Made by a program: the position numbers and the translations under genes
The notes under the pieces: model-generated
Databases searched by the model: none
Told to the model about the DNA's origin: nothing
What the model saw: the letters and a program-made list of their open reading frames with translations, nothing else
Assembly (NCBI RefSeq): GCF_007830055.1
Contig: NZ_VLLE01000004.1
Span: 89,248-153,247 of the forward strand
Length of the DNA: 64,000 bases
Direction of reading: 5' to 3'
Origin: Lacibacter cauensis
GTDB lineage: Bacteria > Bacteroidota > Bacteroidia > Chitinophagales > Chitinophagaceae
Shown here: positions 4,201-22,985 of the stretch, piece by piece
Numbering within the stretch: the stretch's first letter is position 1
Layout of the letters: each line of letters opens with the position of its first letter

Positions 4201-4349
4201 TCGGCAATTAAAGTAATTCTTGGAAATAATACTTCGGGAAAAAGATTGGTTTGCATTTGGGTATAAGAAAATATACCTGCTGCCAAAAGCAGTAAACCAA
4301 TAAATAGAATTGGCTTTTTGAAGATTTGGAAAATGTTTTGTTTGCTCAT
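1242..4349 (-). CDS. Efflux RND transporter permease, CusA/CzcA (heavy-metal) family
   Basis: 1035 aa with 12-TM architecture, two large periplasmic loops and typical CzcA/AcrB-family conservation. Its start overlaps the upstream MFP gene by 4 nt (ATGA). Confidence 0.85.
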   Translation of the reverse strand: MSKQNIFQIFKKPILFIGLLLLAAGIFSYTQMQTNLFPEVLFPRITLIADAGQQPIDRMMITVTKPLESAAKKVKGVKVVKSSTSRGSCVIDIFFDWGSDIYNAKTQVESRINEIKNFLPQGVSIAAEAMNQSTFPVYGFTLESKKHSLVALKDKANLIVRPMFSQVNGISNVVVRGGKNKEFVIVPDAIKMASLGITPNTIINVFNSNNYVLSNGAVEDFSRLYLSLTDTRVMDIEELENTIIKNDGTRLIKLKDIAKIELKEQVEFVVVNANGHDAVLIDLVKQPGINLIDFAKECESKAAEIQKQLPEGMVLKPYYNQSAFVGDSIHSVIKTIYEGLFLAIIVMIIFLRSWRASLVVMLTIPVTLAFTIFVLYLVGISINIMSLGAIAASIGLIIDDAIVIIEQIYRKHEDEPEKNRFSVVKEAIHELFPAMIGSSLATIVIHFPFRMMSGLAGSFFKELSDTMQLTMVTSFLVTWLLLPVFHIIIGFKQPKKTHHKTAEQSIRKLKWLTWFFNKPVFAFSLIIIFVLSAWFSFGKLETGFLPDLDEGTIVLDYFMPPGTSLKETDRVLREIEKIIIAHPDVETYSRRTGIRMAFSTVPQNFGDYSIQLKQHRTKTTVDVIDDLRKEISAKQPVLHISFGQRIADLLGDLMSTPSPIEVKFFGDDYTQLQNITKQAEEIIGNIQGIADIDNGLRIAGPSLVFTPNQELLNQYKISLLDFQTQLSAYTGGITLGINSNQPIPSPAQAAMTAGIQVGQIQEGEQMRRIVMRFADMNINDLEHIKRQLIFLPDGTTRPLTFFCDVKIVQGENEQRRENLKSCVVLTARLDNRDLGSAITEIQQQLNSKLPLPKGYSIAYGGAYSEQQQSFKELLLILIMATLLVFGVFMFLFKEWLLSLLLLFISIMGICGCIIALYLTNIPLNVSSYTGIIMIVGILAENAIFTVAQYRFNMQQTNNVDQSINYAIALRIRPKLMTAIGAILALMPLALGIGLGAQMQQPLAVAVIGGFVVGLPMLLLVFPSLMRLLYRNKQKY

Positions 4350-5281
4350 TTCGCTTTAAGGGTTGTGATTGATATTAAAGCGGTGTCGGGCAAACCGTAA
4401 TTTCCTTTGCTTACTATTTTATCGGTAATATTGAACTGTGGCGATAAAACTTCTATACGGTCTGAATTTTTATTGCCGACTGTAACAGGAATTTTAATTG
4501 CGGTGCTGTCGTTAATGAGTTTCATTACCCAAAACTCTTTCATCATTTCATCACTCAATACGCAGGATTTTGGCAACACTTGTTTTTTGTTTTGTGTGCC
4601 TTTGCTGATGCCTACTTTTACCATCATATTTTCAGGGAGAAATAAATTTTCATTGCACTTTGCTAAAATGGTTTGAGTTTGTGCGGTTACATTCATTGCT
4701 GTTAGTGCCTTTGTGAATGTTGCTGAATGCTGTGTGTTGTCGGGTAAAATAAGTGTGCAAGTGTTTCCTGTTTTTGTATAAGCAGTAAATTCATAAGGCA
4801 CATTTACCTGAAAAACTAAATCGTTGCTTTCGGCTATGGTGCAAAGTTGCGTTCCTTCTAACACATAGTCACCTGCTTGTTGTTTGTCTAATGTTGAAAT
4901 TATGCCCGTTGCTGATGCGGTAACTTTAATTATTCCAAAGTTTTTGAGTGTGCTGTCAACCTTTGAAACATCCGTTCCTAAAGCTCTGCTTTCCTTTGAT
5001 TGCAACACATACAACACATCGCCTTTGCTCACTTTATCGCCCAGTTTCACATTTACCTGCGTGATAAATGCCGGAATAGGAGCTGTAACCAAATTTCGTT
5101 TTAAGTAGATGGTTGTGCCAAACAAAGTCAGTTCATCGTTGATGGAACCGTTGCTGATTGAAACAACTTCAACTGGTGTTTTAGGTATTGTGTTTTGTTC
5201 CGTTTTTGTTTCTGTTTTACTTCCGCAGGAAGCTAAAACCAAAACCAAAGCGATTGAAAAGTATTTGCGTAGTTGTTTCAT
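4346..5281 (-). CDS. Efflux RND periplasmic adaptor (membrane fusion protein) lipoprotein
   Basis: 311 aa with a lipoprotein signal (LVLASCGS) and a beta-barrel/lipoyl-like MFP pattern. Position is between the TolC-like and RND genes, translationally coupled. Confidence 0.75.
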   Translation of the reverse strand: MKQLRKYFSIALVLVLASCGSKTETKTEQNTIPKTPVEVVSISNGSINDELTLFGTTIYLKRNLVTAPIPAFITQVNVKLGDKVSKGDVLYVLQSKESRALGTDVSKVDSTLKNFGIIKVTASATGIISTLDKQQAGDYVLEGTQLCTIAESNDLVFQVNVPYEFTAYTKTGNTCTLILPDNTQHSATFTKALTAMNVTAQTQTILAKCNENLFLPENMMVKVGISKGTQNKKQVLPKSCVLSDEMMKEFWVMKLINDSTAIKIPVTVGNKNSDRIEVLSPQFNITDKIVSKGNYGLPDTALISITTLKAK

Positions 5282-5297
5282 TTCTCTTTGTTGTTAT

Positions 5298-6575
5298 TTA
5301 CCAGTTCCAATAATTGTATGCGTTTATGAGTGATTGCTGTTGTGAAAAAAGCAAGGTATAATCCCGTTGAGCCGTTGCCATATTCTTCAACACCATCGTG
5401 TAATTGATTATAGATAGTTGTCCTGACAGGATTTCTTTTTTGTAACTATTCAGCAATACCTTATAATCTTTTAGTTGCTGTTCTGCAATGGAAATGCGGT
5501 CTGTATAAGATTGCAGTTCGGTTAATATTTTTGATTTGCGAACAGTGTTTTGAGTAATGAAATTGCTTTTGTAAAACGAAACCGATTGCTCCAAAACCTG
5601 TGTCTTATTTCTGTTGATTGACTTCTGATTTCCATCAAAAAAGTTGTAAGTAAAAGTTAATCCGGCACTAATGCCGAAGCGTTTGGGAATTGTTGGTGCA
5701 TAAACTGCATTCAGTCCGGTGTTTGCAAAAAGACTTACCTGCGGTTTATATTTTAGTTCAAATGCTTTTTGCTGTGCAATTAAATTCAAACTATCCAAAT
5801 GATATTTTTCCAAAAACATTGAATTAGAAACGGTGCTATTCAAAGTCAGATTAGTGTTTTGAAGTTGCACTAAAGCTGTGTCGTTAATTCCGCAAAGAAT
5901 GTTTAAGTCCATTAGATCTCTGCGGTAGGTGGCTTTGAAATTGGTTAGTTGAGCCAAATAATTTTGGTGTTCAATATTCAGCAGGGTAAGGTCGGATTGT
6001 TTGTAGATGCTGCTTTCCACTAACTTTTTCAACACATCTTTTTGGTCTTCCAGCAATTTTACCATTGCTTCTGCATAATCAGTTTGCTTATTGTCCTGCA
6101 AACACAAAATGTATTGGTCAGTTACAATTTTCTCAATATCGTGTTCGGTTAGTTTGCTGTTGTTCTGATTGATTTGAGAAGTAACTGTTAATTGCTCACT
6201 GGCTGTTTTGTAGCGTTGTCCGTTAAAAAGAGGTTGGGTAACATTGAGTAATGCCTGATATGTTCCTCCATTTGTTGCAGCAAAGTCATAACCGTAATAA
6301 TTGGTTGCTCCGTTTGAGTTTGGCTCAAATGAAGTTTTGTTATTGTCGGTTGAAATGATTGGTGAAAAAAGGTAATTGGCGGTTACGCCAATTTGTGGTT
6401 TGGTATAAAGGGCTTTCAGGCGTTCAGCATCTAACTGGTTTGCCTTACTTTGATTTTTGTTGTCGTTAATTAATGGGCTGTTTTGCTTGGCTGCTGTTGT
6501 GTAATAACTCAAATTGTTTTGTGCGAAACAAATATTGGTAGCTAAAAGCAGTAATGCAAGAATGAGTTTTTGCAT
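5298..6575 (-). CDS. TolC-family outer-membrane efflux protein
   Basis: Internal ATG (MQKLILALLLLATNICFAQ, signal peptide) gives ~425 aa with two coiled-coil/beta repeats typical of OMF proteins. The ORF-track start at 6665 lies inside the upstream gene and is an over-extension. Confidence 0.7.
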   Translation of the reverse strand: MQKLILALLLLATNICFAQNNLSYYTTAAKQNSPLINDNKNQSKANQLDAERLKALYTKPQIGVTANYLFSPIISTDNNKTSFEPNSNGATNYYGYDFAATNGGTYQALLNVTQPLFNGQRYKTASEQLTVTSQINQNNSKLTEHDIEKIVTDQYILCLQDNKQTDYAEAMVKLLEDQKDVLKKLVESSIYKQSDLTLLNIEHQNYLAQLTNFKATYRRDLMDLNILCGINDTALVQLQNTNLTLNSTVSNSMFLEKYHLDSLNLIAQQKAFELKYKPQVSLFANTGLNAVYAPTIPKRFGISAGLTFTYNFFDGNQKSINRNKTQVLEQSVSFYKSNFITQNTVRKSKILTELQSYTDRISIAEQQLKDYKVLLNSYKKEILSGQLSIINYTMVLKNMATAQRDYTLLFSQQQSLINAYNYWNW

Positions 6576-6576
6576 C

Positions 6577-7011
6577 TTAATCTTTTTCTTCTGATAAATA
6601 TTTTCCTTCTCCATCAAACACAATTTCTTTTCCTGTGATTTGGATTTCATAGGTATTAGAGCCATCCTGTTTGGTTATTTTTTCGCAGCCCTGAATTTTT
6701 TCGTTGGGGTAGTGGGCTTTGATGTAATCGGGAATAGCGGAGGCATTTGGCAACTGGCTTTCGGCAATTACCAATTCTGTTTCTGTTACCTCTGCTTTGT
6801 CGTTAAACGATACTGCTCCTTTTTCTTCTCCATCTTTGTATTTGGCTTCCCAAATTGGCGGTTCATCATTCCATTTCAAAATAGTTGCGTTGGGATGAAG
6901 TTTTACAAATGCTTCTGAAATGTTAGCTGGAACTTGTCGGGTTTTAGCGGCTTGGTTGCAAGCGGATAAAATCAGAACTGTAAATGCGAATAGAATTATT
7001 AGTTTATTCAT
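6577..7011 (-). CDS. PepSY-like (BLIP-like, DUF2874-type) periplasmic lipoprotein
   Basis: Trimmed to the ATG giving MNKLIILFAFTVLILSACNQ (lipoprotein signal). The protein is ~145 aa and is a paralog of the next gene. Shared motifs: 'F.K.YP...I..W..E' and 'YE.EI.G.E..FD..GK....'. Confidence 0.55.
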   Translation of the reverse strand: MNKLIILFAFTVLILSACNQAAKTRQVPANISEAFVKLHPNATILKWNDEPPIWEAKYKDGEEKGAVSFNDKAEVTETELVIAESQLPNASAIPDYIKAHYPNEKIQGCEKITKQDGSNTYEIQITGKEIVFDGEGKYLSEEKD

Positions 7012-7021
7012 GGTTGTGGTT

Positions 7022-7450
7022 TTAATCCTTCGTTTCTTTAATGAATTTTCCGTTGCTATCAAACAATAAATCCAAGCCTTTAATTTCGGCTTCATAAGTA
7101 ACCGTGCCTCTGGCATCAGTAATTTTTGCAGCTTCTTTTACCTTTTGTCCTTTGTAGTTGCTTGCCACATACTCCAAAATTCCTTTTGGCAATTGGTTTA
7201 ATTCAATTTCTACTTCGGCTTCCAGTATGTTGCCTTGTGCATCAAACAAAACTGAATTGTCAATTTTATTGAGGTCAAAACTTGCTTCAAACTTTTCTCC
7301 TTCCTTATCCCACTTTACTTCTTTGATGCTTGGATAGTGTTTTTGAAAGGATGTTTTTACGGATGCAGGAACATCTTTTTCCTGTATTTTTTGTGCAAAG
7401 GTGAGTGATGTAATCACCGCTGCAACTAACATTGAAGCTAACTTTTTCAT
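7022..7450 (-). CDS. PepSY-like (BLIP-like) periplasmic protein, paralog
   Basis: 142 aa with a signal peptide, a tandem paralog of 6577-7011. It is the first gene of the PepSY-PepSY-TolC-MFP-RND transcription unit. Confidence 0.55.
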   Translation of the reverse strand: MKKLASMLVAAVITSLTFAQKIQEKDVPASVKTSFQKHYPSIKEVKWDKEGEKFEASFDLNKIDNSVLFDAQGNILEAEVEIELNQLPKGILEYVASNYKGQKVKEAAKITDARGTVTYEAEIKGLDLLFDSNGKFIKETKD

Positions 7451-7500
7451 TGCCTTGTTTATGAAGTGAATTAAAATTTACAGGGCAAAGTTGCAACCCG

Positions 7501-7529
7501 ATTTAGAAGAAATTTAGAATTTTTAGAAA
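7501..7529. promoter_or_regulatory. Three direct TTAGAA repeats (~10-bp phasing) upstream of the PepSY-efflux operon; candidate response-regulator boxes
   Basis: Sequence gatTTAGAAgaaatTTAGAAtttTTAGAAag. A similar TTGAATtaatTTAGAAT lies at 9481-9497 upstream of the RR-HK operon. Confidence 0.35.
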
Positions 7530-8788
7530 GCCACCGAAAACGAATGAAAATTGTCGGCAAATGAGTAGGTGATTTTCCAGTTGTTCAGGTCTGCAATCTT
7601 CTTGATGATAGCCAAACCCAAGCCGTTTCCTTGTTCGGATGGGTTGGATTTTGCAAAGCGGTTGAATAACTTATCTGCAACCAAAGGTTGTGGTTGTCCT
7701 GTGTTTGAAAAGGTAAGCGAATTGCTTGAAAGGATTACAACTATTTGCCCATCACTTATATTATGCCGAATGGCATTTAGAAACAAATTACTGATAAGGA
7801 TTTCCGTCAAAACAGGATTTGAATTTGTTGAAACGGTTTCATTCAATTCTGTTTTTATTATAAGATTTTTTGCCTTTGCCTGTTCGGTAAAAAAATCAAG
7901 GTGCTTTTCAATTGCTTCATACAAACTGATTGTTTGTTTCTCGTTGTAGTTGTCGTTTTCAATTTTAGAAAGCAGTAATAGATTTTTGTTGAGGCGGTTT
8001 AACCTTGATACACTATCGTTTAATGAACTTAAAATTTGGTTTTGCTGCTCTGTAAATTCTGCACTCTGAATAAGTGTATCAATCTTTGCCTGAAAAACGG
8101 CTAAAGGCGTTTGTAATTCGTGTGCTGCGTTTTCTATAAATTCCCGTTGGCTGTGGTAAATGGAAGTATTGCGTTCAATCAGTTTTTCAATGCTTTGATT
8201 TAGGCGGTTAAATTCCTCAATGTTGGTATTGGTAAGTTTAGGTTGATTGGATTTGTCAATTTCAAATTGCTCAATTTTCTGCAAGGTTTCGTAAAAAGGT
8301 TTCCAAAGATTTTGCGATAATCTTTTATTGATAATTAATAAGCCAACAAGCAACAGCGAAATGATGATTAAGAAAAGAAGTGCAATGCTTTTCATTAAAT
8401 CTTCTGTTTCCACTAAGTTAATTCGTGCTGAATAGGTGTAGGGTTTTCCTTCAATGGAAACAGGTAAATTGAGTTCCCTGTATGGTTCGTTTTCGGAATT
8501 AAGTGTGTCGTAATAATAGCTGTAAAAAATGGTGTCTTTTTGTAGGGGCTTTGCTACAATAATTTTTATATCACGGTTAAATTTGTTCCAAATAGATATG
8601 TCCGCTTCTTTCAATTGTGCAATGGAGAATTGCAAAAATTCATTCTTGCGAAGTATCAATGCTTCGTCTGCATCATCAATGTATAGCTTCTCGGTAAGGA
8701 AATAAAACAAAGGTGCTGCTATAATTAAAATCAGCACTGCAAAAATTAAATATGCTCTTGATGTTTTATGTAATAGTTTTTTAGTCAT
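7523..8788 (-). CDS. Sensor histidine kinase (periplasmic sensing, HisKA + HATPase_c)
   Basis: Two TM segments flank a ~110-aa periplasmic loop. It has an H-box (AAHELQTPLAV), N-box (LISNLFLNAIRHN) and G-boxes (GNGLGLAI). It overlaps the RR gene by 8 nt. Confidence 0.85.
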   Translation of the reverse strand: MTKKLLHKTSRAYLIFAVLILIIAAPLFYFLTEKLYIDDADEALILRKNEFLQFSIAQLKEADISIWNKFNRDIKIIVAKPLQKDTIFYSYYYDTLNSENEPYRELNLPVSIEGKPYTYSARINLVETEDLMKSIALLFLIIISLLLVGLLIINKRLSQNLWKPFYETLQKIEQFEIDKSNQPKLTNTNIEEFNRLNQSIEKLIERNTSIYHSQREFIENAAHELQTPLAVFQAKIDTLIQSAEFTEQQNQILSSLNDSVSRLNRLNKNLLLLSKIENDNYNEKQTISLYEAIEKHLDFFTEQAKAKNLIIKTELNETVSTNSNPVLTEILISNLFLNAIRHNISDGQIVVILSSNSLTFSNTGQPQPLVADKLFNRFAKSNPSEQGNGLGLAIIKKIADLNNWKITYSFADNFHSFSVAF

Positions 8789-9458
8789 TCTGCCACTTGT
8801 AACCTAATCCGTAAACTGTTTTTATATAGTCGCTGCAACCTGCATCTTTCAATTTGTTTTTAAGATTTTTGATATGGGCATACACAAAATCGTGGTTGTC
8901 CAACATATCTGCCATATCGCCTGAAAGATGCTCGGCAATAGCACTTTTTGAAAGCACTTTATTTTCATTGCCGATTAAATATAACAGCAAATCAATTTCT
9001 TTTTTAGTGATGTCAATTTTCTTGCTTTTTACTTTTACTGTTTTAGAACGAATATCAATTTCAATTTCGTTGTAAGCAACAAGATTGTTGCCTTTGAAGT
9101 TTTTTCGCCTGATGAGTGCTTGTATTCTTACAAGCAATTCAGATAAATGAAATGGCTTTGTGAGGTAGTCGTCTGCCCCCAAATTGAACCCTTCAATTCG
9201 TGTGTCCAAAGTTTCTTTTGCAGAAATGATGATTACTCCTTCGATTTTATTTTGCCGTTTTAATTCCTTCAAAATTTCAAAGCCGTTGCCGTCAGGCAAC
9301 ATCAGGTCAAGTAAAATACAATCGTATTCATAGATTGAAATTTTGTCAATTGCATTTTTTAAATTGTTTACCCATTCACATATGAAGCTATTACCTTTAA
9401 GGTAACTTCTGATGCTCTCTGCAAGCTCCTTTTCATCTTCTATGAGTAACAATTTCAT
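8781..9458 (-). CDS. OmpR-family response regulator (receiver + winged-helix)
   Basis: Phospho-acceptor region ILLDLMLPDGNGFEIL and a C-terminal wHTH (TVYGLGYKW). Confidence 0.85.
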   Translation of the reverse strand: MKLLLIEDEKELAESIRSYLKGNSFICEWVNNLKNAIDKISIYEYDCILLDLMLPDGNGFEILKELKRQNKIEGVIIISAKETLDTRIEGFNLGADDYLTKPFHLSELLVRIQALIRRKNFKGNNLVAYNEIEIDIRSKTVKVKSKKIDITKKEIDLLLYLIGNENKVLSKSAIAEHLSGDMADMLDNHDFVYAHIKNLKNKLKDAGCSDYIKTVYGLGYKWQND

Positions 9459-9507: not shown

Positions 9508-11619
9508 TTATAAAAACCAAAGACTTTCTCTTCCAAAGTCAGGCAGTTTGTCGTGTTGGAAATAGGGATAAATCTCTGCAACCATTTCAGGGTATTTGAT
9601 TGTAACTGGCAAACTTTGCTGATTGGTGCTTTTCCAATACATACGGCTGAACTGATAAACCTGGTCAATGAGTTGTTCAACTAAATTCATATCATCTAAC
9701 ATGCCTTCAACAGTTGATGACAAAGCAATCTTCACCGGAAAGTGATATTCCTTCTGTGCTGGTTTTGCCGTTGCATCGTAACGGGTATTATTGAACAACA
9801 AGTATTCTGATTTACCAACTTTTACAATTGTACCACTGTAAGGCATCAGGTTATTGCCGTCTTTTAAGTCAAAGCCTAAAAGTTCTTTGCTTTCTGTTTT
9901 ATTGATGGTTACAACGATTACAGGAATATTTAAGCCTAATGTATGCAGCGTTCTCAGGATGGGTTCTAATTCCTTTTTGCCAATGTCTTTATAGAAATGA
10001 ATAACAAGCCTTGAAGCTGTGTAATTAACTGCAATGAACTTTGCAACTGCTTCACGAATAGAACCTGCAAGACTTACAGTATCGTTGCCTTTAAAACAGT
10101 CAAAGCCTTTAAACATTCCCTCGTTATTAAAGCAAAATGCAGAGCCTACAAACCTTGTTTTTCTTGTTACTGAATAGAATGCTCCAACGCCAACAATCAG
10201 TTCGTTATTGGTTGGTCTGTTTAAACGCCACGGCACACCGCCCAACTTTGCCAGCATTGCGATTTCAATATGTGGCAGGAATGTATTGAAGTAAGAATTT
10301 GGCTTACCGTTTTTGTACAGGTGTTCGCTTTTGATTACCTGTGAAAGCACACCTTCATACAATAGTATTTCTTTGATTTTATAATAGATGTTCTTCCTTG
10401 CTTCGTCTTTCTCTAATTTGGGAACCGGATTAACAAACAAAGCCATGTATTGAGTATCGGGAAGCCATTCTGCATTTTTCACAGCATTTTTCACTGCTGT
10501 AACTGCATTTTGTACTGTATCAAACTCAACGTTCTTTGAAATATCTAACTCAAAAGGAACTTTGATGTAGTCCTGCATCTTGGGGAATGGAAATCTATCA
10601 TCTTTCCAACCACTGTTCAGATACTTATATAACTCGGTAACTGCACCTGCTTTGTCTGACTGCTGATAAATGAAAAAGAATTTGAAATTGCTTGGCTTTT
10701 GTGGCAACTGGTAAGGACCTTTTGACTTAAAATCTTTCTTGGGTTCTTTCCCTGTTCTATTGCCTGAATAAAGCAGGTCATTTGATGTAGAACTAATGAC
10801 CCGATACTGCTCTGCAATTGGCTTATAAAAACCATTTGAACTGATTGGAATTAAGTTGCGGAAAGTATCGTTATCAAAATACTTGGTGTAAAAGTCTTGC
10901 AATACATTGAGGTATCTCGGATAGCGGTTTGTTAAATTTGGTACATCGTGGGCAATCTCTAAATGTGGTTTGATGTCATTACTCAATACAGGAAAGCACT
11001 TATCAGGCATATTGATTACTTCCTGCGGTCTAAACTTCCATTTGTATAAGATGCCATTGCAAACTATCCAATTGTAAAGGTTAGTATTGAAGTTGTAAAT
11101 CTCTGAAACAGGTTTAGCAAAAACTTTTGTCGTGCCGTCATAAGACAAAACTATTTCGGGTTTATCTGTAACCCTTGCATGTTGCACCTTTACAGTAAAC
11201 TGGTTGTACACATTGTATTTTGCATTGCTTTTATCCTTGTCGTGAAACCATACTTCTGTTTCGCTGGTGAAATTCTGATGGATAATGTCAGCAATGCCCA
11301 TGAAATAATCCCGAATGAGAAAACGGTAATAATGATTTGCGAACCTGTAAGAAACAGATAAGTCAATCTCCAGTTCTATTGCACCCTCTTTGGCTGGTTG
11401 AAAATCTGTGTACAGTTTGTTTAACTCTAACAGTTCTAATGCAGAAAGTTTATCATCAAGAAGCCCTTGCAAATCATCTTTGAACACCGGGTAATAATCA
11501 GCCTGTTTCTGCTTATAAAAAGCAAATTTCTGTTTCCCTTTAGGTGGGTCAAATGGAATGATGTTTAAGAGTAATTCTTGCTGCATAAAGTTTAAATATT
11601 TTCTAAACGGGTTATCCAA
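9508..11619 (-). CDS. Long prokaryotic Argonaute (pAgo), predicted catalytically inactive (long-B type)
   Basis: 703 aa. The MID-domain 5'-phosphate pocket pattern is conserved: YYKIK ... GVLSQVIK ... NTFLPHIEIAMLAKLGGVPWRL, matching the hAgo2 VYAEVK...GMATQCVQ...LKINVKLGGVN pattern (Y/K/Q/K). In the PIWI domain, the first catalytic Asp is replaced (IVGVGAFYS versus iGADVTH) and the last His/Asp is replaced (VYQFSRMYW), so the DEDX tetrad is incomplete. An alternative start at ATG 11586 would remove the 28-nt overlap with the upstream gene. Confidence 0.65.
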   Translation of the reverse strand: MDNPFRKYLNFMQQELLLNIIPFDPPKGKQKFAFYKQKQADYYPVFKDDLQGLLDDKLSALELLELNKLYTDFQPAKEGAIELEIDLSVSYRFANHYYRFLIRDYFMGIADIIHQNFTSETEVWFHDKDKSNAKYNVYNQFTVKVQHARVTDKPEIVLSYDGTTKVFAKPVSEIYNFNTNLYNWIVCNGILYKWKFRPQEVINMPDKCFPVLSNDIKPHLEIAHDVPNLTNRYPRYLNVLQDFYTKYFDNDTFRNLIPISSNGFYKPIAEQYRVISSTSNDLLYSGNRTGKEPKKDFKSKGPYQLPQKPSNFKFFFIYQQSDKAGAVTELYKYLNSGWKDDRFPFPKMQDYIKVPFELDISKNVEFDTVQNAVTAVKNAVKNAEWLPDTQYMALFVNPVPKLEKDEARKNIYYKIKEILLYEGVLSQVIKSEHLYKNGKPNSYFNTFLPHIEIAMLAKLGGVPWRLNRPTNNELIVGVGAFYSVTRKTRFVGSAFCFNNEGMFKGFDCFKGNDTVSLAGSIREAVAKFIAVNYTASRLVIHFYKDIGKKELEPILRTLHTLGLNIPVIVVTINKTESKELLGFDLKDGNNLMPYSGTIVKVGKSEYLLFNNTRYDATAKPAQKEYHFPVKIALSSTVEGMLDDMNLVEQLIDQVYQFSRMYWKSTNQQSLPVTIKYPEMVAEIYPYFQHDKLPDFGRESLWFL

Positions 11620-12254
11620 TTATTGAATCTTGGAGATTTTGCCCTTATGCGTTCCAAACCAATTGCCTCAGAAAGAATATCACCATAAACAACCTTATTG
11701 TAACCGTTAATAATTCTTTCTAAACGATGAGACGGAGAAGTAGCTTTATTGTTGTTTATCATTTCAGGATTTGCATAATCAGCAAAGGTTTTTTCAAGCT
11801 CTGCCATACCTACTAAATCTTCTTTTGGTATTTGACTTTTGATGACGTCAATATCATTGAAAAGCAATCCTTCAAATTCATGCAATTGCAAATAAGGAAT
11901 AAATCTATTTTGAAATTGTGGGTCAATGCTCTGTAACATTGATTGCTCTAGGCTATCCATACGGCTGTATTTGTCTACAATTGTATGTGCTGCATCCCAT
12001 CCCGGAAACTGGTATTTTGCATACATGCCATAATAGTCAATAAAGGTGGTCACATAAGCATCCGGTTCTGCTTTGAGGTGTGTATCGATTTGATCTTTTA
12101 ATTTACTCCATTTAACAATACCACCTCTTGATGCCTTAATTAAGGGTGTTTGCAAATAAATATTTCTGTTGATGAAAGGAACCTGTAAGTTAGTTTTAGC
12201 AAATGCTTGCTCTGTAGGTCCTTCGCAAATCATAATTATCCTTTTCATAACCAT
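11592..12254 (-). CDS. DUF4276-like protein (TOPRIM-like putative nuclease partner of the upstream ATPase)
   Basis: 220 aa. The N-terminal MICEGPTE(Q) resembles the conserved start of the DUF4276 family as I recall it. A downstream acidic 'LFNDIDVIK' gives an E...DxD-like arrangement reminiscent of TOPRIM. It is translationally coupled to the ATPase (3-nt gap) and to pAgo. Confidence 0.5.
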   Translation of the reverse strand: MVMKRIIMICEGPTEQAFAKTNLQVPFINRNIYLQTPLIKASRGGIVKWSKLKDQIDTHLKAEPDAYVTTFIDYYGMYAKYQFPGWDAAHTIVDKYSRMDSLEQSMLQSIDPQFQNRFIPYLQLHEFEGLLFNDIDVIKSQIPKEDLVGMAELEKTFADYANPEMINNNKATSPSHRLERIINGYNKVVYGDILSEAIGLERIRAKSPRFNNWITRLENI

Positions 12255-12257
12255 TTA

Positions 12258-13328
12258 CTAAAAGTTTGGTTGACCTGTTGTAATAATGTTTCTTTTCCAT
12301 AAATCATCTATGGTGTAATCTTCTAACCAGACCTTTAATTTCTCTGAATCTAACCTTTCAAAAATGCTTTCTCCGTTCTTTTGGTCAACTGTAATCACAT
12401 TTTCTGGTTCAAAATGACTTATTAAGTCAGTGGACTGAGTTGCAATAATTACTTGGCACTTTTTTGCTGCTACAGATTTTACCAACCCTGCAAGTTTGGA
12501 AATTGCCGTTGGGTGCAAGCCCAATTCAGGTTCATCAATAATGATAGTTTCCGGTAGATTGGGCTGAAGAAATAAGGTTGCTAAAGCAATAAAACGAATT
12601 GTACCATCTGACAAATCGTTTACACCATATACAGTAGAACTATACTTGCTTTGCCATCTTAGTTTCAGGTTTCCGTTACTCTCTGGACGAAAGAAAAAAT
12701 CTAAAAAGTATGGAGCTATGCTCTGGATTGTTTTTACAATGAGATTGTAGACAATAGGTTTTTCTTTTTGAATGTTATACAAATAAGCACCCAGATTGCT
12801 ACCCTTTTCATACAAATAGTATTTATCGTTCTCAATGTTTGATTCCTTATTGAATGGCGAATTTTCACCAGTATCATGAAAGTGATATTTCGCTAATTGC
12901 TTTAGATAATTTCTTATGTAGTCTGCTCTTGGGATTGTTTGATAACGCAAAACAGATTCGGGACCAAATGATGCAGCATCTACGGGGTTTTTATAATAGG
13001 GATTATTACCATACCATAAACCCTCTTTTGTGAAAATAAAACCTGCATCACCTTTCTTTATTGTAAAAGAGTAGCCGTTGGTATTGGGAAAATACAAGTG
13101 TGTTGAAATTTCCTCTGTCACTTTATCTCCCTTGTGTAAAAAAGTATCTATACCTTTTAGAGCAACAAACTCTTGTAGATTGCGATTATACACCTGCTTT
13201 AAAAAATCAAAGAAGGATAAAAAATTACTTTTACCACTTCCGTTTGCACCAATAAGAATATTGATGGGTTGGAGCTTTAGGCTTAACTCTTTAATAGATT
13301 TATAGCCGTTTATGTCAATTTTATTCAT
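12258..13328 (-). CDS. ABC/AAA_21-type ATPase (OLD/RecF-like abortive-infection ATPase family)
   Basis: 356 aa with Walker A IGANGSGKSN, an ABC-signature-like LSDGTIRF and Walker B IIIDEPELGLHP. It overlaps the HsdS stop by 4 nt. Confidence 0.75.
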   Translation of the reverse strand: MNKIDINGYKSIKELSLKLQPINILIGANGSGKSNFLSFFDFLKQVYNRNLQEFVALKGIDTFLHKGDKVTEEISTHLYFPNTNGYSFTIKKGDAGFIFTKEGLWYGNNPYYKNPVDAASFGPESVLRYQTIPRADYIRNYLKQLAKYHFHDTGENSPFNKESNIENDKYYLYEKGSNLGAYLYNIQKEKPIVYNLIVKTIQSIAPYFLDFFFRPESNGNLKLRWQSKYSSTVYGVNDLSDGTIRFIALATLFLQPNLPETIIIDEPELGLHPTAISKLAGLVKSVAAKKCQVIIATQSTDLISHFEPENVITVDQKNGESIFERLDSEKLKVWLEDYTIDDLWKRNIITTGQPNF

Positions 13329-14788
13329 TTGACTTTGTTTTGTTCGTTCTTAATGTGCTTAAATGCTTCCTTCTCGTCTTGTTCAATAAATATTTCAACT
13401 GCCTTTTTCGCCACGTCAATTAATGACTTCGACTGCTGCTCTGCTAACTGAACCGACTTAACCTTTTTTGTTATTGCTTTTACATTCTTAGATACAGGAA
13501 TAATTAAACCTGCTACATCTGTATTCTTGATGTGACCAACTGTGTCAGCAATAGTCATTTGCCTTAACAACTGCATTTGACCTATTTTACTATTGATGAC
13601 AAGAAGAATATACTCAGAGGTGAATTGCGATTTGGGTTTGATTTGAATATGACATACACGCTGATTAACATATACTGGCTCCACAACTAAACTGCTATAA
13701 AACCATTTAAGACCATCCATGCCAATCACAATATCACCAGTATTTGCCTTTGTCAATTTTAGTTTTCTTACATAATCATTATCCAACTTAGTGAGGTCGG
13801 CTGTTTGGATAAAATGAGGTTTACAATCTCTAATCCTTATGAAAGGTTCACCTTCACCCACCTCGATAAACTGTTTACTTTGAAAAGGGAAACCATTTTT
13901 TATTACTATTTCTGAACGCAGTTTTGTTGTTTCAAACTTTGATAACCGTTCAAGTAATTCAAGGCAAGCTGCATCCCAAAATTCAGCATCTAATCTGTCG
14001 CCTTTAAGCATTGTACTTAGTTTTATAATTGAGTGATTGTCCTCAATTTCAAACTGTACTTTGTAGTTCTTGAATTTAATTTTCTTTGGCTTCCAAGTGT
14101 CTAAATTCAATTCCTTGAAAAGCATGTCTTCTGCTGCCTTATACTCTTTTAAGGCTTTTTGCTGAAGGCTATAAGATGTTTCAACAAGCTGCTGTATCTC
14201 ATTCTGAAACTTCTTACTTACTACAGGTATCGGGATGGTGTACAAATATGACGGTGCAATTTCAGGCTGCAAGCCACCATACATTCCTTTATCTATTAAT
14301 TTCCGACCATAGAATGAATTAAGGAAAACGCCCAAATAAAACGGGTTGACCTTTTTTGTTCTAACGATAAGAATATGAGAAGATGCAATTAATGGTTCCC
14401 TTTGCCCAAAGTAAATTGCAGTATCCCCGAAATTTGCTCCTGTTCTTGTAATTACAACATCACCATGATTTACTAAGTTGCTCTTTAGCTTTTTAGCATC
14501 ATCTGAACTGATAAAAACCTCTGAACTCTCGAATGTAATGTTCAATGGTCTTAAATTCTGGGTTCTAAAAAAAGTTACACCCTCGTCTGAATATTCTCGT
14601 TTAATCTCTGAAGGATGCAAGATTACGGTATCAAGATTTCCAAGAGTTTTATACTTTTTACTTGTAACAGCATCATAAACCCTCAAATATTCTGGATGAT
14701 AAAACTCCGCATCAATACGTAATCTGCCTTCTAATGCAGAAAAGTTTATTGCTGAGTATTCAAAGTTTTTATACTTTCTAATGTCCAT
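13325..14788 (-). CDS. Restriction-modification specificity subunit (HsdS-like, two target-recognition domains)
   Basis: 487 aa with a duplicated TRD/coiled-coil organisation. The start is 1 nt downstream of the methyltransferase stop. Confidence 0.8.
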   Translation of the reverse strand: MDIRKYKNFEYSAINFSALEGRLRIDAEFYHPEYLRVYDAVTSKKYKTLGNLDTVILHPSEIKREYSDEGVTFFRTQNLRPLNITFESSEVFISSDDAKKLKSNLVNHGDVVITRTGANFGDTAIYFGQREPLIASSHILIVRTKKVNPFYLGVFLNSFYGRKLIDKGMYGGLQPEIAPSYLYTIPIPVVSKKFQNEIQQLVETSYSLQQKALKEYKAAEDMLFKELNLDTWKPKKIKFKNYKVQFEIEDNHSIIKLSTMLKGDRLDAEFWDAACLELLERLSKFETTKLRSEIVIKNGFPFQSKQFIEVGEGEPFIRIRDCKPHFIQTADLTKLDNDYVRKLKLTKANTGDIVIGMDGLKWFYSSLVVEPVYVNQRVCHIQIKPKSQFTSEYILLVINSKIGQMQLLRQMTIADTVGHIKNTDVAGLIIPVSKNVKAITKKVKSVQLAEQQSKSLIDVAKKAVEIFIEQDEKEAFKHIKNEQNKVK

Positions 14789-14789
14789 C

Positions 14790-17009
14790 TTAGTTGTTTA
14801 AGAAATCAAATGCTACATCACCTGCCTTAGCTCTTTTTTTACCCCAATCCTCATACGCATCGGCAATCATTGAAAGGTCAGTTTGGTAAACAGGATTTTT
14901 ATTTTCATCCAGCACTACATTACCTTCCTTATCCTGTAAAAAGATATACTCCCCTGAGTTGTTCTTAAAACTAATTTTGCTTGTAGCGAAGAATATTGGA
15001 TAATCTTTAATCTCTTCGCCTTCTTCATATTTCTTTAGAAACAACAAGCTCGTTTTTGTGCCTGTATGTGGTTTGAAGCTATTGCCATGCAAACCAACGA
15101 CTGCCAAAATCCTCGCCTTGCTGGTTACAAACTTCCGAACATACTTTTCACTGCTATTATTGAATATGCCCTGTGGCAGAACAATAACAGCTCTTCCCCC
15201 TGGGTTCAACAAATCAAGAACCCTCTCAATAAAAAGTATATGCCTATCAACTTTCTCCCACTTGCTTTCGTTCTTTTTGAAGTTGATAATTTCTTTTATC
15301 CTTGGGGTCAATTGTGGCTCAAATAATTCGCCTTCCAATACAGCATCTATCATTACCTGAGATATTAACTGACAAGCAAACTGCTGGTCATCTTCACTTT
15401 CCAAATCAATTTCCTCATCTTTATTTATCTCTTTCACTTTTGCAATTATGCTTTCAATACCTTCATCAGTAAAGGTTATTTCAAACTCCTCTGCAATGGT
15501 ATTTATCATTGCTTTAATCTTGCCAGTATCAATTTTAAAAGTGTAACGATGCCCTAAGATTTCATTGTAAAGATTGATTAATGATTTTTCCTGTATATCG
15601 CCTGCGAATGGCGGGTTGCTCATTACTATATCAAAATGCAAGTGCTTGTTTTTATCATCACTTATCAAATCTTCTTTTTGAAGTTCAACAGTAATTTCAG
15701 GTGTCCACTTGGGATGCTCCAAAGAGTTTTGTTTAAAGATGTGTGTTTTACCATCACCTGCAATCAGCATTATTGCTCTTGAAATTTTTGCTGACTTTTC
15801 ATCAAAGTCAATACCCCATAAATATTTTGAAGCATAATTAACCTTTGCTTTCTCGGTGGTCATTTTGTATTTATTCCACACATACTCCATTGTATGCACA
15901 AGAAAACCTGCTGAACCACAAGCCGGGTCAATTACATATTCCTTATTGCTTGGGTTTATCATTCGTACACAAAAATCAATTACAGGTCTTGGTGTGAAGT
16001 ATTGCCCTTTCTTGCTTTTAGCAACATCAGGTATTAAATATTCAAACGCTTCATCAATGATGCGGAGGTTGGAGAAAAACAGTTTAACTTCTGTGAGTTC
16101 ACCAACACAAACGTTCAAATGTTCCGGTGTTAATTCAATGCTATCAGAAGCTGCAAAAATTCCTTTCCATTCTTTCTTTGCATCATCAAACAGTTTGCCT
16201 ATTTCCCTTTTGGTTACTTCTGCTGTTTTGTATTGGCGGAAAAGCAAGGATTTATCCTTCCTGTTTTCTGCCTCCCATTCATCATACAACTTTGCGTAGA
16301 TGAGTTTGAAAATCTCTGTAAAGCTGTCTGCACCGGAATTAGCAAGTACAAGTTCTTCCAGCACTTCAATAATCTTGCGAAGATTGAACTGCTTATTTTC
16401 ATTGATCTTCTCTAATTCAGATAAGGTCCACTTACGGCCAAGAATAATGTCTTTGATTGAGGCTGCCGGATGTTCTTCATCTTTTACCTGCTGATATTCC
16501 GCTTCAGTAGGAATGTCTGGTAAGCTATCATCAAACTCTTTTGGGTATGGTCTAAAAAGCCTTGTAATGGCATTACCGTTTACACCAACACCAAGCGGAG
16601 AACCTTCATTGTTCAAATAGCTTTTAAGCTGCTGTATGCTATTCTTTTGGGATGGAGCTTTTACCTCCACCAAAATCCACGGTGTTGTTTCGTCTTCCTG
16701 GTAAACAACTATATCAGCCCGTCCTCGTCCGTTCCTTCCGAAACTTACATTCTGCTCACACTTCAACCTGTTTTTGGGATAGTGATAATGTTCTGTCAAT
16801 TCAGTAAGGAATAATTGCCTTACAATTTCTTCGGGTGCAGATTTGCCTGTGGCTACATTGTAAACCAATTTGTCTTTTCCTTCGCTGTCGTGACTTTTTA
16901 AATACCACTTGCCTTTTTCCTTCTCAAAGAATTTGAGTTTCGGAACGTATTGCTTTTGCAGTGACAGATCCGTTTCCCAGTTGGGCAGTATTTTTGAAAG
17001 TATATCCAT
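14790..17009 (-). CDS. Fused PD-(D/E)xK nuclease (HsdR_N-like) + N6-adenine DNA methyltransferase; type IIB (BcgI A-subunit-like) or type I-like RM enzyme
   Basis: 739 aa. The N-terminal RADIVVYQEDETTPWILVEVKAP is a D...EVK nuclease motif. MTase motif I is IDPACGSAGFLV and motif IV is NPPF. There is a ~110-aa insertion between NPPF and the LLNPGGRAVIVLPQGIF motif. No HsdR helicase gene is present in the operon. Confidence 0.7.
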   Translation of the reverse strand: MDILSKILPNWETDLSLQKQYVPKLKFFEKEKGKWYLKSHDSEGKDKLVYNVATGKSAPEEIVRQLFLTELTEHYHYPKNRLKCEQNVSFGRNGRGRADIVVYQEDETTPWILVEVKAPSQKNSIQQLKSYLNNEGSPLGVGVNGNAITRLFRPYPKEFDDSLPDIPTEAEYQQVKDEEHPAASIKDIILGRKWTLSELEKINENKQFNLRKIIEVLEELVLANSGADSFTEIFKLIYAKLYDEWEAENRKDKSLLFRQYKTAEVTKREIGKLFDDAKKEWKGIFAASDSIELTPEHLNVCVGELTEVKLFFSNLRIIDEAFEYLIPDVAKSKKGQYFTPRPVIDFCVRMINPSNKEYVIDPACGSAGFLVHTMEYVWNKYKMTTEKAKVNYASKYLWGIDFDEKSAKISRAIMLIAGDGKTHIFKQNSLEHPKWTPEITVELQKEDLISDDKNKHLHFDIVMSNPPFAGDIQEKSLINLYNEILGHRYTFKIDTGKIKAMINTIAEEFEITFTDEGIESIIAKVKEINKDEEIDLESEDDQQFACQLISQVMIDAVLEGELFEPQLTPRIKEIINFKKNESKWEKVDRHILFIERVLDLLNPGGRAVIVLPQGIFNNSSEKYVRKFVTSKARILAVVGLHGNSFKPHTGTKTSLLFLKKYEEGEEIKDYPIFFATSKISFKNNSGEYIFLQDKEGNVVLDENKNPVYQTDLSMIADAYEDWGKKRAKAGDVAFDFLNN

Positions 17010-17013
17010 TGGT

Positions 17014-17325
17014 TTACTTGTTTTTCTTTTTTGTTTTACGATACTTTATTTCGTCCTCAGCAACCTGCATTGCTTTAAGTGCCAAATCCTCATCTTTCGT
17101 TACATCAATAATCTGGTCCGCTAACCAAAGTGTAAGCAATTCATCGTTGCTGACTTTCATTATTCGGGCTAACTGAATTACCTGCTCTTTCTTGGCTTTG
17201 CGTTCCCCTCTCTCAATTTTACTAAGCATAGGAGTATCAATTTCCAAAATAGAAGCAACCTGCCTTTGCAACAAATTATTCTGCTCTCTGAGTTGCTTTA
17301 ATCGTTCACCAAATTGGTTTGCCAT
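17014..17325 (-). CDS. XRE-family HTH transcriptional regulator (candidate C-protein-like controller of the RM/defence operon)
   Basis: 103 aa with LKQLREQNNLLQRQVASILEIDTPMLSKIERGER (XRE HTH). Its stop is 4 nt from the RM gene start. An ATTGCCA direct repeat sits at the start codon. Confidence 0.75.
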   Translation of the reverse strand: MANQFGERLKQLREQNNLLQRQVASILEIDTPMLSKIERGERKAKKEQVIQLARIMKVSNDELLTLWLADQIIDVTKDEDLALKAMQVAEDEIKYRKTKKKNK

Positions 17326-17448
17326 CTCATTTTTATTTTGTTTTAGTGATGGCGATTGCCACTAATGATGTAATTGCCATAACCTGAAATTTGACTTGTC
17401 AAATATTGGCAAATATAGGAAAAGAAAAGCAATAGAATGATAAGAAAC

Positions 17449-17492
17449 TTAGCAAAGCTGCAAAACTTGCAAAGTCTGCAAAGTGTGCAAGG
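17449..17492. repeat. Five tandem ~9-bp iteron-like repeats (yTGCAAAG)
   Basis: Sequence ttAGCAAAGcTGCAAAAcTTGCAAAGtCTGCAAAGtGTGCAAGG, in the intergenic region downstream of the primase-like gene and upstream of the XRE gene. An inverted cluster lies at 18896-18940. Confidence 0.6.
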
Positions 17493-17527
17493 CACACCTG
17501 CACCCCAACACCTGAAAGGTGAAGGGG

Positions 17528-19792: not shown

Positions 19793-19822
19793 TGTTCTGT
19801 TCTTTCAGTTAGTTAAAAAATT

Positions 19823-20128: not shown

Positions 20129-20233
20129 CTTTTTTAAATTTTTAAATTGATGGCACAAACCTCCTAATTGCTTGAGGGGCAAAGGTTAAGGGGTTAACCC
20201 CTTACTCAGATTACTGAATAATCTTAATGTTTT

Positions 20234-21301: not shown

Positions 21302-21303
21302 TA

Positions 21304-22410: not shown

Positions 22411-22418
22411 TCTTTCAG

Positions 22419-22766: not shown

Positions 22767-22767
22767 T

Positions 22768-22921: not shown

Positions 22922-22985
22922 AAAAGAAGGAAAAATCAGCTAAAACCTATGAAAAACAAGCACTTAGCAAACAAAGGAAAGATAA

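What the first reader, a model, noticed from the sequence alone, without database searches (positions are those of the whole stretch)
9508..11619. Long pAgo with an intact MID 5'-phosphate pocket but a degenerate PIWI catalytic tetrad
The MID motifs Y-x3-K ... SQ-x-I-K ... AKLGG align residue-for-residue with the eukaryotic/long-pAgo nucleotide-binding pocket. In the PIWI domain, G/A replaces the first Asp (IVGVGAFYS) and Q replaces the final His/Asp. This predicts guide binding without slicing, which is the signature of long-B pAgos that signal to an effector.
Basis: partly seen in the sequence, partly recalled or inferred. Interest (0 to 1): 0.8.

Follow-up and report, generated by a model that had tools for sequence, protein, structure and literature searches.

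The report
Inactive long-B Argonaute on mobile element
The gene is a real, full-length bacterial Argonaute that should bind a guide strand but cannot cut; it belongs to an already catalogued but functionally unstudied branch (long-B), rides on a Bacteroidota integrative element, and has no dedicated partner "effector" gene.

Summary
The ORF is real, on the minus strand. Its true CDS is 9508-11586 (692 aa, ATG), not 9508-11619.

It is a six-part Argonaute: N, L1, a roughly 60-residue PAZ remnant, L2, MID and PIWI. The MID 5'-phosphate pocket is invariant in 171 relatives: Y401, K405, Q416, K447 and the C-terminal L692. These align with RsAgo Y463/K467/Q478/K506/L777.

The catalytic tetrad is degenerate. 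Position 1 is Gly468 and position 3 is Tyr532, both essentially invariant.

A 53%-identical homologue is already listed as long-B, small PAZ, YK motif, no tetrad (Ryazansky 2018). PADLOC has a full-length model for the family.

The "signals to an effector" part is not supported. Across 86 loci the upstream gene falls into 39 families and the downstream gene into 56. DNA homology stops exactly at the CDS ends.

The constant companion lies 0.3-9.5 kb upstream on the same strand. It is an integrase, Xis-like HTH and VirE_N/DUF3987 primase backbone, the "og_54" subclade that Song 2023 left uncharacterised. Swappable restriction-modification or metal-efflux cassettes sit between primase and Argonaute.

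Most likely it is a stand-alone, RsAgo-like guide-directed DNA binder serving the element. It is a new member of a known kind, of moderate-to-low interest.

The parts
9508..11586 (-). pAgo coding sequence (692 aa plus stop); the true start is the ATG at 11586
   Evidence: ORF. Homologues are 682-698 aa and start at MxQxLxLNIIPF. DNA homology to at least 15 loci is bounded exactly by 9508 and 11586.
11287..11586 (-). N domain (about residues 1-100)
   Evidence: AlphaFold models with pLDDT around 90. The N-half hits only Argonaute N-lobes. Boundaries are approximate, set by analogy with EcAgo (PMC13535254).
11119..11286 (-). Linker L1 (about residues 101-156), long beta-hairpins
   Evidence: Secondary structure.
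10927..11118 (-). Reduced PAZ (PAZ*), about residues 157-220, roughly 60 residues
   Evidence: Three short strands and two short helices. Same size and position as the EcAgo PAZ, residues 155-218. The homologue WP_055152023.1 is scored PAZ 'small'.
10702..10926 (-). Linker L2 (about residues 221-295)
   Evidence: Models.
10222..10701 (-). MID domain (about residues 296-455) with the 5'-phosphate pocket: Y401 (10384-10386), K405 (10372-10374), Q416 (10339-10341), K447 (10246-10248)
   Evidence: Invariant in 171 sequences. Aligned with AfPiwi, RsAgo and EcAgo pocket residues (PMC4919518; PMC13535254). Codons checked.
9511..10221 (-). PIWI* domain (about residues 456-692). Tetrad positions: G468 (10183-10185); finger D496 or D502 (10099-10101 or 10081-10083); Y532 (9991-9993); E667 (9586-9588). 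C-terminal L692 (9511-9513).
   Evidence: Pfam Piwi. hhalign to TtAgo. HMMER alignment to EcAgo, RsAgo and AfPiwi. Conservation.
10081..10176 (-). Residues 471-502: an almost invariant stretch with low model confidence, at the place of the sensor loops and 'beta-relay'
   Evidence: pLDDT below 50 for 471-482 and 496-502. The consensus FYSxTRKTRFVGSAFCFNNEGIFKGFDCF is nearly invariant. Interpretation follows bioRxiv 2025.04.08.647717.
11592..13328 (-). Upstream neighbours: AAA_21 ATPase (12258-13328) and DUF4276 (11592-12254), the PADLOC candidate pair HEC-01. They are 5 nt from the pAgo start. This is a variable cassette, not a conserved partner.
   Evidence: The same pair precedes pAgo only in L035, and sits further upstream in L036.
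13325..17009 (-). Type I-like restriction-modification genes: methyltransferase with an HSDR_N_2 N-terminus (14790-17009) and specificity subunit (13325-14788). No HsdR is present.
17014..22410 (-). Element backbone: XRE-type HTH (17014-17325), VirE_N/BT4734_N plus DUF3987 primase-helicase (17528-19792), HTH_17 Xis-like gene (19823-20182), DUF6617 (20234-21301) and tyrosine integrase (21304-22410). It is inserted next to mnmE (22986-24365).
   Evidence: The backbone is shared at 92.7% nucleotide identity with L087.
1242..9458 (-). Downstream cargo: response regulator (8781-9458), histidine kinase (7523-8788), and outer-membrane, HlyD and RND efflux genes (1242-6665)
   Evidence: Downstream genes differ between loci.

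Best explanation
The gene encodes a long-B prokaryotic Argonaute with the layout N, L1, reduced PAZ, L2, MID and inactive PIWI.

Shown here:
- The fold is a full-length Argonaute.
- The canonical Y-K-Q-K pocket and the C-terminal Leu are intact.
- Both metal-binding Asp positions are replaced, by Gly468 and Tyr532.
- No dedicated effector gene is conserved next to it.
- It occupies a fixed place in an integrative element whose backbone is integrase, DUF6617, an Xis-like HTH and a VirE_N/DUF3987 primase. It is the last, co-directional gene after a swappable restriction-modification, defence or metal-efflux cassette.

Inferred from RsAgo and EcAgo:
- It loads 5'-phosphorylated small guides, probably RNA taken from the transcriptome.
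- It binds complementary DNA without cutting.
- It interferes with invading plasmids or phages either by binding alone or by drawing in non-dedicated nucleases. This would protect the element and its host.
For: - Family and fold.
- Pocket and tetrad residues with their conservation. Reference residues come from PMC4919518 and PMC13535254.
- A homologue is listed as longB, small PAZ, YK motif, no tetrad in the Ryazansky 2018 supplement.
- No conserved neighbour at -1 or +1; the primase is upstream on the same strand in 38 of 59 loci that hold at least 9 kb of upstream sequence.
- Gene-order strings for 60 loci.
- Homology is bounded by the CDS.
- From the primase side, 14 of 28 loci hold the pAgo within 10 kb, and most of the rest are cut off while still inside a cassette.
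- Precedent for a binding-only long-B Argonaute: RsAgo silences plasmids in E. coli without its neighbour (PMC4919518; summarised in PMC10620215).
Against: - No experiment exists for this subclade.
- Most characterised long-B systems need an effector.
- The almost invariant yet low-confidence sensor-loop segment (471-502) looks like a signalling switch. That would fit a partner or oligomerisation that I did not find.
- The gene is only 5-30 nt from a co-directional upstream gene in most loci, so coupling to whatever lies upstream cannot be excluded.
Confidence: 0.55

Rival explanations
1. Effector-coupled abortive infection. On target recognition the pAgo activates an adjacent toxic protein: here the AAA_21/DUF4276 pair, elsewhere HsdR, Res, GmrSD, YhcG and others.
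For: - All characterised effector-linked long-B systems work this way (PMC10620215, PMC13535254).
- The gene at -1 is co-directional in 76 of 78 loci, with a median gap of about 20 nt. The gap is 5 nt in the window.
- Many -1 genes are nucleases or helicases.
- The sensor-loop region has low pLDDT.
Against: - There are 39 unrelated -1 families in 78 loci. They include RhuM, Bro-N, a 23S-rRNA-IVP four-helix protein, and M78 and YgjP peptidases.
- pAgos that are 95-99% identical have different cassettes.
- Two loci have no cassette at all.
- In BPAN, BPAS and BPAM the effector lies downstream and co-evolves with the pAgo. Here the gene at +1 falls into 56 families.
Confidence: 0.15
2. The pAgo works with the VirE_N/DUF3987 primase-helicase of the same element. 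The primase might be a source of short primers used as guides, or an unwinding or replication-control partner. The two would frame a cargo hotspot.
For: - The primase is the only recurrent companion, always on the same strand and upstream.
- It is directly adjacent in L092 and L155.
- Half or more of related primase loci carry the pAgo.
- The association was noted as og_54 in PMC10620215.
- Pairwise identities of the two proteins are positively correlated (Mantel p 0.001).
Against: - The correlation is weak (Pearson 0.32, Spearman 0.20), with clear reassortment. Eight pairs have primase identity above 90% but pAgo below 70%. Nine pairs show the reverse pattern: primase below 70% with pAgo above 85%.
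- In L002, L017 and L042, metal-efflux genes rather than the primase occupy the sequence held upstream, which is 8-10 kb.
- Co-residence on one element backbone explains the linkage without any functional tie.
Confidence: 0.12
3. A cryptic nuclease: remaining acidic residues (D496/D502, D534, E667) rebuild an active site.
For: E667 and D496/D502 are mostly conserved. Position 4 is acidic, as it is in active pAgos.
Against: - Gly468 (171 of 171) and Tyr532 (170 of 171) occupy the two Asp positions that hold the metal ions.
- D534 is replaced by V, L or K, and E667 by S, A or G, in some members.
- EcAgo has the same Gly at position 1, lacks Asp at position 3 (Gln568), and does not cut (PMC13535254).
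Confidence: 0.03

Closest known systems
RsAgo (Rhodobacter sphaeroides long-B pAgo; PDB 5AWH, 6D8A)
   Same: - Y-K-Q-K pocket plus C-terminal Leu.
- Small PAZ.
- Gly at tetrad position 1 and Glu at position 4.
   Different: - RsAgo is 777 aa and has a predicted nuclease gene downstream (PMC10620215); this gene has no fixed neighbour.
- This gene is carried on a Bacteroidota integrative element.
EcAgo of the EcBPAN system (PDB 23wq; PMC13535254)
   Same: - Domain boundaries nearly superimpose. The EcAgo PAZ is residues 155-218, about 60 residues.
- Tetrad G492/E532/Q568/D700 against G468/(D496 or D502)/Y532/E667 here.
- 5'-P pocket Y426/K430/Q441/K469 plus L731.
   Different: EcAgo is followed by the bAgaN PD-(D/E)XK nuclease and assembles an 8:8 complex. 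No such downstream gene exists here.
AfAgo/AfPiwi (truncated long-B; PDB 1W9H, 6T5T) with AfAgo-N
   Different: AfAgo is split into two genes and lacks PAZ. Here all lobes are in one chain, with a PAZ remnant.
Long-B subclade associated with og_54 'VirE N-terminal domain' proteins (Song et al. 2023, PMC10620215; census of Ryazansky et al. 2018, PMC6299218)
   Same: - A VirE_N-type primase lies 2 to 12 genes upstream on the same strand.
- The homologue WP_055152023.1 is in the census as longB.
- Restriction-modification S subunits, Schlafen/AlbA_2 and RND efflux genes in the neighbourhood were all noted there.
   Different: Nothing differs in kind. This work adds three points: the companions form an integrative-element backbone, the cassettes between primase and pAgo are swapped, and homology ends at the CDS borders.

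Membership tests
Long-B pAgo (Ryazansky et al. 2018) | MID-PIWI sequence groups with long-B rather than with long-A or short pAgos | tested here: met
   A profile search of PDB gives AfAgo 4.6e-22, EcAgo 2.1e-16 and RsAgo 1.2e-12. The best long-A hit is 3.5e-5 and the best short pAgo hit is 5.4e-3. The 53%-identical homologue WP_055152023.1 is labelled longB in the census table. No tree was computed here.
Long-B pAgo (Ryazansky et al. 2018) | PIWI* without a DEDX tetrad | tested here: met
   G468 aligns with TtAgo D478 and EcAgo G492. Y532 aligns with TtAgo D546 and EcAgo Q568. G468 is invariant (171/171) and Y532 nearly so (170/171).
Long-B pAgo (Ryazansky et al. 2018) | Canonical YK-type 5'-phosphate motif in MID | tested here: met
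   Y401, K405, Q416 and K447 are invariant. They align with RsAgo Y463/K467/Q478/K506 and with the known AfPiwi pocket residues (Y123/K127/Q137/K163, cited from memory).
Long-B pAgo (Ryazansky et al. 2018) | N, L1 and L2 present, with a shortened PAZ* | tested here: met
   Models have pLDDT 83 and 91. 585 residues align to RsAgo. The N-half hits only Ago N-lobes, best MpAgo, which has a truncated PAZ. About 60 residues lie between L1 and L2. This rests on a predicted structure, not a solved one.
BPAN / BPAS / BPAM (effector-coupled long-B systems, Song et al. 2023) | A nuclease, SIR2 or transmembrane effector gene immediately downstream in a 2-3 gene operon | tested here: not met
   In the window the gene at +1 is a response regulator. 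The +1 gene falls into 56 clusters over 79 loci and none recurs in more than 5 loci.
BPAN / BPAS / BPAM (effector-coupled long-B systems, Song et al. 2023) | Co-evolution of the pAgo with its partner | tested here: inconclusive
   There is no candidate effector to test. For the only recurrent companion, the primase, pairwise identities correlate weakly (Pearson 0.32, Mantel p 0.001) and there are many discordant pairs.
og_54 (VirE_N)-associated long-B subclade (Song et al. 2023) | A VirE N-terminal-domain protein encoded 2nd to 8th gene upstream of the pAgo | tested here: met
   In the window the PF08800 plus DUF3987 protein is the 6th gene upstream. It is present upstream on the same strand in 38 of 59 loci with at least 9 kb of upstream sequence. 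That PF08800 is the domain called 'VirE_N' in that paper rests on my memory of the Pfam name and on the PADLOC hit RTasVirE.
Long-A slicing pAgo (TtAgo, CbAgo type) | Complete DEDX tetrad and a full two-lobed PAZ | tested here: not met
   See the tetrad mapping. The PAZ is only about 60 residues.
Short pAgo systems (SPARTA, SPARSA, SPARDA) | MID-PIWI only, with an APAZ-effector partner | tested here: not met
   The protein carries its own N-L1-PAZ*-L2 half. No APAZ gene lies nearby.

The most novel reading that the evidence does not exclude
The pAgo is not a host defence gene with a missing effector. It would instead be a backbone function of an integrative element, working with the element's VirE_N/DUF3987 primase-helicase across a cargo-insertion hotspot. 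Examples of such a role are using primase or transcript-derived short RNAs to recognise incoming related elements or plasmids (entry exclusion), or controlling the element's own replication. This would need no toxic effector. The switch-like, invariant sensor-loop segment would act through oligomerisation or through the helicase.
Probability: 0.12. Interest if true: 0.7.

Novelty: new member of a known kind. Interest (0 to 1): 0.35.

Why it matters
Most long-B Argonautes are now explained as sensors that switch on a neighbouring killer protein. A minority have no such neighbour, and their function was explicitly left open (PMC10620215).

This window is a clean example of that minority. The comparison of about 160 loci gives a concrete frame for experiments:
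- The gene is a fixed module of a widespread Bacteroidota integrative element. Relatives occur in 503 species-level genomes.
- It sits at the end of a rapidly swapped restriction-modification or metal-efflux cassette.
- It is linked to a primase-helicase.

This frame also accounts for two old unexplained observations from the 2018 census, RND efflux pumps and HsdS genes in 'pAgo operons'. They are cargo of the same element, not functional partners.

Tried and rejected
- Looked for a conserved effector by clustering all ORFs within ±10 kb of 86 loci. None was found at any fixed position.
- Considered the HEC-01 pair (AAA_21 + DUF4276) as the partner. It lies directly before the pAgo only in the window and L035, and further upstream in L036, so I rejected it.
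- Considered D534 (YKD, resembling the eukaryotic YRD) as the third tetrad residue. I rejected it in favour of Y532 for four reasons. The conserved Arg six residues upstream anchors a gap-free alignment to TtAgo, EcAgo and hAgo2. hhalign and HMMER agree with Y532. D534 itself is variable.
- The glutamate-finger equivalent could not be fixed. The EcAgo alignment points to D496. The position just before helix 503-520 points to D502. The RsAgo alignment points to a variable residue. The loop has low pLDDT.
- Terminator and promoter scans gave nothing above shuffled expectation, and they do not model Bacteroidota promoters.
- The supplements of PMC10620215 held no organism names that could tie this family to their og_54 group directly.
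- I could not superpose coordinates, because models are not exported. Residue equivalences therefore rest on sequence and profile alignments plus the predicted secondary structure.
- The far (integrase-distal) end of the element lies beyond the start of the window (position 1), so att sites were not determined.
Full report
**1. The observation**

A 703-codon ORF lies at 9508-11619 on the minus strand. It scores 55 bits on Pfam Piwi against a cut-off of 28.9. It scores 888 bits on a PADLOC pAgo model, which it covers from end to end: residues 13-703 map onto profile positions 1-674 of 674.

A search of 5.8 billion proteins returned 616 relatives. The best 120 share 48-96% identity, and the full-length ones are 682-734 aa, mostly about 690 (a few are fragments). 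The full-length ones start at the consensus MxQxLxLNIIPF, which corresponds to the ATG at 11586.

DNA comparison with related loci shows that nucleotide homology begins exactly at 11586 and ends exactly at 9508 in at least 15 independent loci. The CDS is therefore 9508-11586 (692 aa). The TTG extension to 11619 overlaps the end of the preceding gene.

I use 692-residue numbering below.

**2. Fold and domains**

An AlphaFold model built from 44 family members has mean pLDDT 83 and pTM 0.77.

- Foldseek against PDB returns only Argonaute and PIWI proteins. RsAgo is first, with E 2.7e-24 and TMq 0.66.
- The first 295 residues modelled alone (pLDDT 91) also hit only Argonaute N-lobes and the AfAgo-N protein. 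The best match is MpAgo, which has a truncated PAZ.

Between the long L1 hairpins (to about residue 156) and the L2 helices (from about residue 221) only about 60 residues remain. They form three short strands and two short helices. EcAgo shows the same arrangement: PAZ 155-218, described as about 60 residues in a hairpin-like structure (PMC13535254).

The layout is N, L1, PAZ*, L2, MID, PIWI.

**3. MID pocket**

HMMER alignments of the family profile to AfPiwi, RsAgo and EcAgo place four residues as follows:

| This protein | AfPiwi (from memory) | RsAgo | EcAgo |
|---|---|---|---|
| Y401 | Y123 | Y463 | Y426 |
| K405 | K127 | K467 | K430 |
| Q416 | Q137 | Q478 | Q441 |
| K447 | K163 | K506 | K469 |

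These residues contact the guide's 5'-phosphate in the solved complexes (PMC4919518; PMC13535254).

All four are invariant in 171 non-identical family members. The C-terminus ...LWFL is also invariant. In RsAgo (L777) and EcAgo (L731) the carboxylate of the terminal Leu holds the Mg2+ that bridges to the 5'-phosphate.

The pocket is therefore intact.

**4. PIWI tetrad**

- **Position 1.** hhalign to TtAgo aligns ELIVGVGAF with ELAVGFDAG, so G468 corresponds to D478. I checked that the TtAgo sequence I used is identical to PDB 3DLB. HMMER aligns G468 with EcAgo G492. That paper names G492 as the position-1 substitution.
- **Position 3.** Anchoring on the conserved Arg six residues upstream (TtAgo R540 to D546, EcAgo R562 to Q568, here R526 to Y532) gives Tyr532. 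hhalign and HMMER give the same answer.
- **Position 4.** PVTIKYPEMVA aligns with EcAgo PVTITYSDLIA (D700) and RsAgo PVTIFYSERIA. TtAgo PAPLHLADRLV (D660) was matched by eye on the motif, because the hhalign alignment stops before this region.
- **Glutamate finger.** This is either D496 or D502. The alignments disagree and the loop is modelled poorly.

Conservation in 171 sequences:

| Residue | Count out of 171 |
|---|---|
| G468 | 171 |
| Y532 | 170 |
| E667 | 157 (otherwise S, A or G) |
| D534 | 132 (otherwise V, L, K or E) |

Both metal-binding aspartates of the RNase H core are missing throughout the family. Slicing is not expected.

**5. Family assignment**

The nearest solved proteins by sequence are the three long-B representatives.

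The supplementary table of the reference census lists WP_055152023.1 from Jiulongibacter sediminis (698 aa). This is my hit P0089, 53% identical over the full length. The table records it as longB, PAZ 158-238 'small', MID 297-459 'YK', PIWI 460-678, with no catalytic tetrad.

The family was therefore already catalogued in 2018.

**6. Surroundings**

In the window the pAgo is the last gene of a co-directional run:

mnmE | tyrosine integrase, DUF6617, HTH_17 (Xis-like), VirE_N/BT4734_N + DUF3987 primase-helicase, XRE HTH, type I-like methyltransferase, S subunit, AAA_21 ATPase, DUF4276, pAgo.

A two-component system and an RND efflux operon follow.

A scan of one genome per species found relatives in 503 genomes. 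Nearly all were labelled Bacteroidota. I clustered every ORF within ±10 kb of 86 loci, with these results:

- The gene at -1 is co-directional in 76 of 78 loci. The gap is usually under 30 nt. It belongs to 39 different clusters.
- Those -1 clusters include HsdR, type III Res, type IIG enzymes, GmrSD, YhcG, a RecD-like helicase, RhuM, Bro-N, a 23S-rRNA-IVP protein, M78 and YgjP peptidases, Schlafen/AlbA_2, DUF5655 and DUF4276.
- The gene at +1 belongs to 56 clusters in 79 loci.
- The only recurrent companion is the primase. It is always upstream and on the same strand, 1.3-9.5 kb away. It is present in 38 of 59 loci that hold at least 9 kb of upstream sequence.

**7. The view from the primase side**

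A metagenome scan with the window's primase returned 28 loci with at least 8 kb downstream. Fourteen of them contain the pAgo. Most of the others are cut off while a restriction-modification cassette is still running. L088, for example, ends in the same three genes that precede RhuM and pAgo in L018.

- In L092 and L155 the pAgo follows the primase directly, about 330 bp away.
- In L089, L099, L138 and L143 a metal-efflux cassette fills the gap instead of a restriction-modification cassette. This is the arrangement also seen in L002.
- L087 shares the backbone at 92.7% nucleotide identity and the pAgo CDS at 95%. Everything between them and everything downstream is unrelated.

The primase and the pAgo therefore bracket a cargo region that turns over quickly. 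The pAgo itself behaves as a discrete, conserved module.

Pairwise identities of primase and pAgo across 33 loci correlate only weakly: Pearson 0.32, Spearman 0.20, Mantel p 0.001. Clear reassortment is visible.

The same insertion point next to mnmE recurs in at least eight other loci.

**8. What is known**

Song et al. 2023 showed that long-B pAgos paired with a downstream nuclease, SIR2 or membrane protein are abortive-infection systems. They noted a separate subclade associated with 'og_54, VirE N-terminal domain' proteins. [quoted passage not shown]

Ryazansky et al. 2018 noted HsdS, Schlafen/AlbA_2 and, in 14% of long-B operons, RND efflux pumps 'whose possible roles remain unknown'.

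The window belongs to exactly this group. My comparison explains those neighbours as backbone and cargo of one integrative element.

**9. Mechanism**

The identity as an inactive, guide-binding long-B Argonaute is secure (about 0.95).

How it acts is inferred. The best-supported reading is a stand-alone, RsAgo-like interference protein that binds DNA through small 5'-P guides, serving the element and its host. I put the whole statement at 0.55.

One feature keeps the effector idea alive. Residues 471-502 are almost invariant, yet they are the least confident part of the model. They lie where sensor loops and the 'beta-relay' switch sit in other pAgos. Low pLDDT in that region has been proposed as a marker of such a switch (bioRxiv 2025.04.08.647717). 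The output of that switch could be oligomerisation, a variable upstream partner (0.15), or the primase-helicase (0.12).

**10. Verdict**

The step from 'long-B' to 'signals to an effector' went further than the evidence allows.

The gene is a new member of a known, catalogued, but experimentally untouched subclade. Interest is moderate to low as a finding. The element context adds some value as a frame for testing what effector-less long-B Argonautes do.

Noticed in passing
window 17014-24365 (also L051, L067, L087, L088, L089, L099, L106, L125, L136): An integrative element with a tyrosine integrase, DUF6617, an HTH_17 Xis-like gene and a VirE_N/DUF3987 primase is inserted next to mnmE. The same mnmE-proximal insertion recurs in several unrelated genomes. 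The far end of the element lies beyond the start of the window, so att sites were not found.
   Followed up: partly
window 11587-17457, compared with L087 7169-10850: Closest relatives share the backbone at 92.7% nucleotide identity and the pAgo at 95%, but carry a completely different cassette between primase and pAgo. Homology breaks fall at about 115 nt inside the primase 3' end or at the HTH, and exactly at the pAgo start codon. This looks like a recombination hotspot for defence or cargo cassettes.
   Followed up: partly
window 11592-13328: An AAA_21 ATPase plus DUF4276 pair matches the PADLOC candidate system HEC-01 (443 and 253 bits). It is embedded after a type I-like M+S pair. Its function is untested.
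   Followed up: no
window 13325-17009: The restriction-modification module has a 739-aa methyltransferase carrying an N-terminal HSDR_N_2 (PD-(D/E)XK-like) domain and a 487-aa S subunit, but no HsdR gene. It could be an orphan or type ISP/IIG-like arrangement, or HEC-01 may have taken the place of R.
   Followed up: no
window 1242-9458: A two-component system and an OEP/HlyD/RND efflux operon lie directly downstream of the pAgo. Related elements carry CzcB, ACR, P-type ATPase, MerT or Cu-oxidase cargo in the same place, or between primase and pAgo. This accounts for the 'RND pumps in long-B operons' noted in 2018.
   Followed up: partly
L141 14173-14499, L142 14734-15060; L140: In one subgroup with the order primase, DUF6660, ACR, CzcB, P-type ATPase, only a 109-aa stretch of pAgo similarity remains, or none at all. 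Sister loci (L138, L143) keep a longer match that runs to the locus end. These may be decayed pAgo copies.
   Followed up: no
L055, L077: Contigs assigned to a Bifidobacteriaceae MAG and a Phycisphaerales MAG carry pAgos 82% and 99% identical to this Bacteroidota family. Binning errors are more likely than cross-phylum transfer.
   Followed up: no
right-hand parts of L013, L018-L020, L056, L078, L080, L084: A recurring set of small genes of unknown function marks the far side of the cargo region: DUF6943, several unannotated proteins of 77-249 aa, and an SNase-like protein on the opposite strand. It may be the other conserved end of the element. No relaxase was seen within 10 kb.
   Followed up: partly
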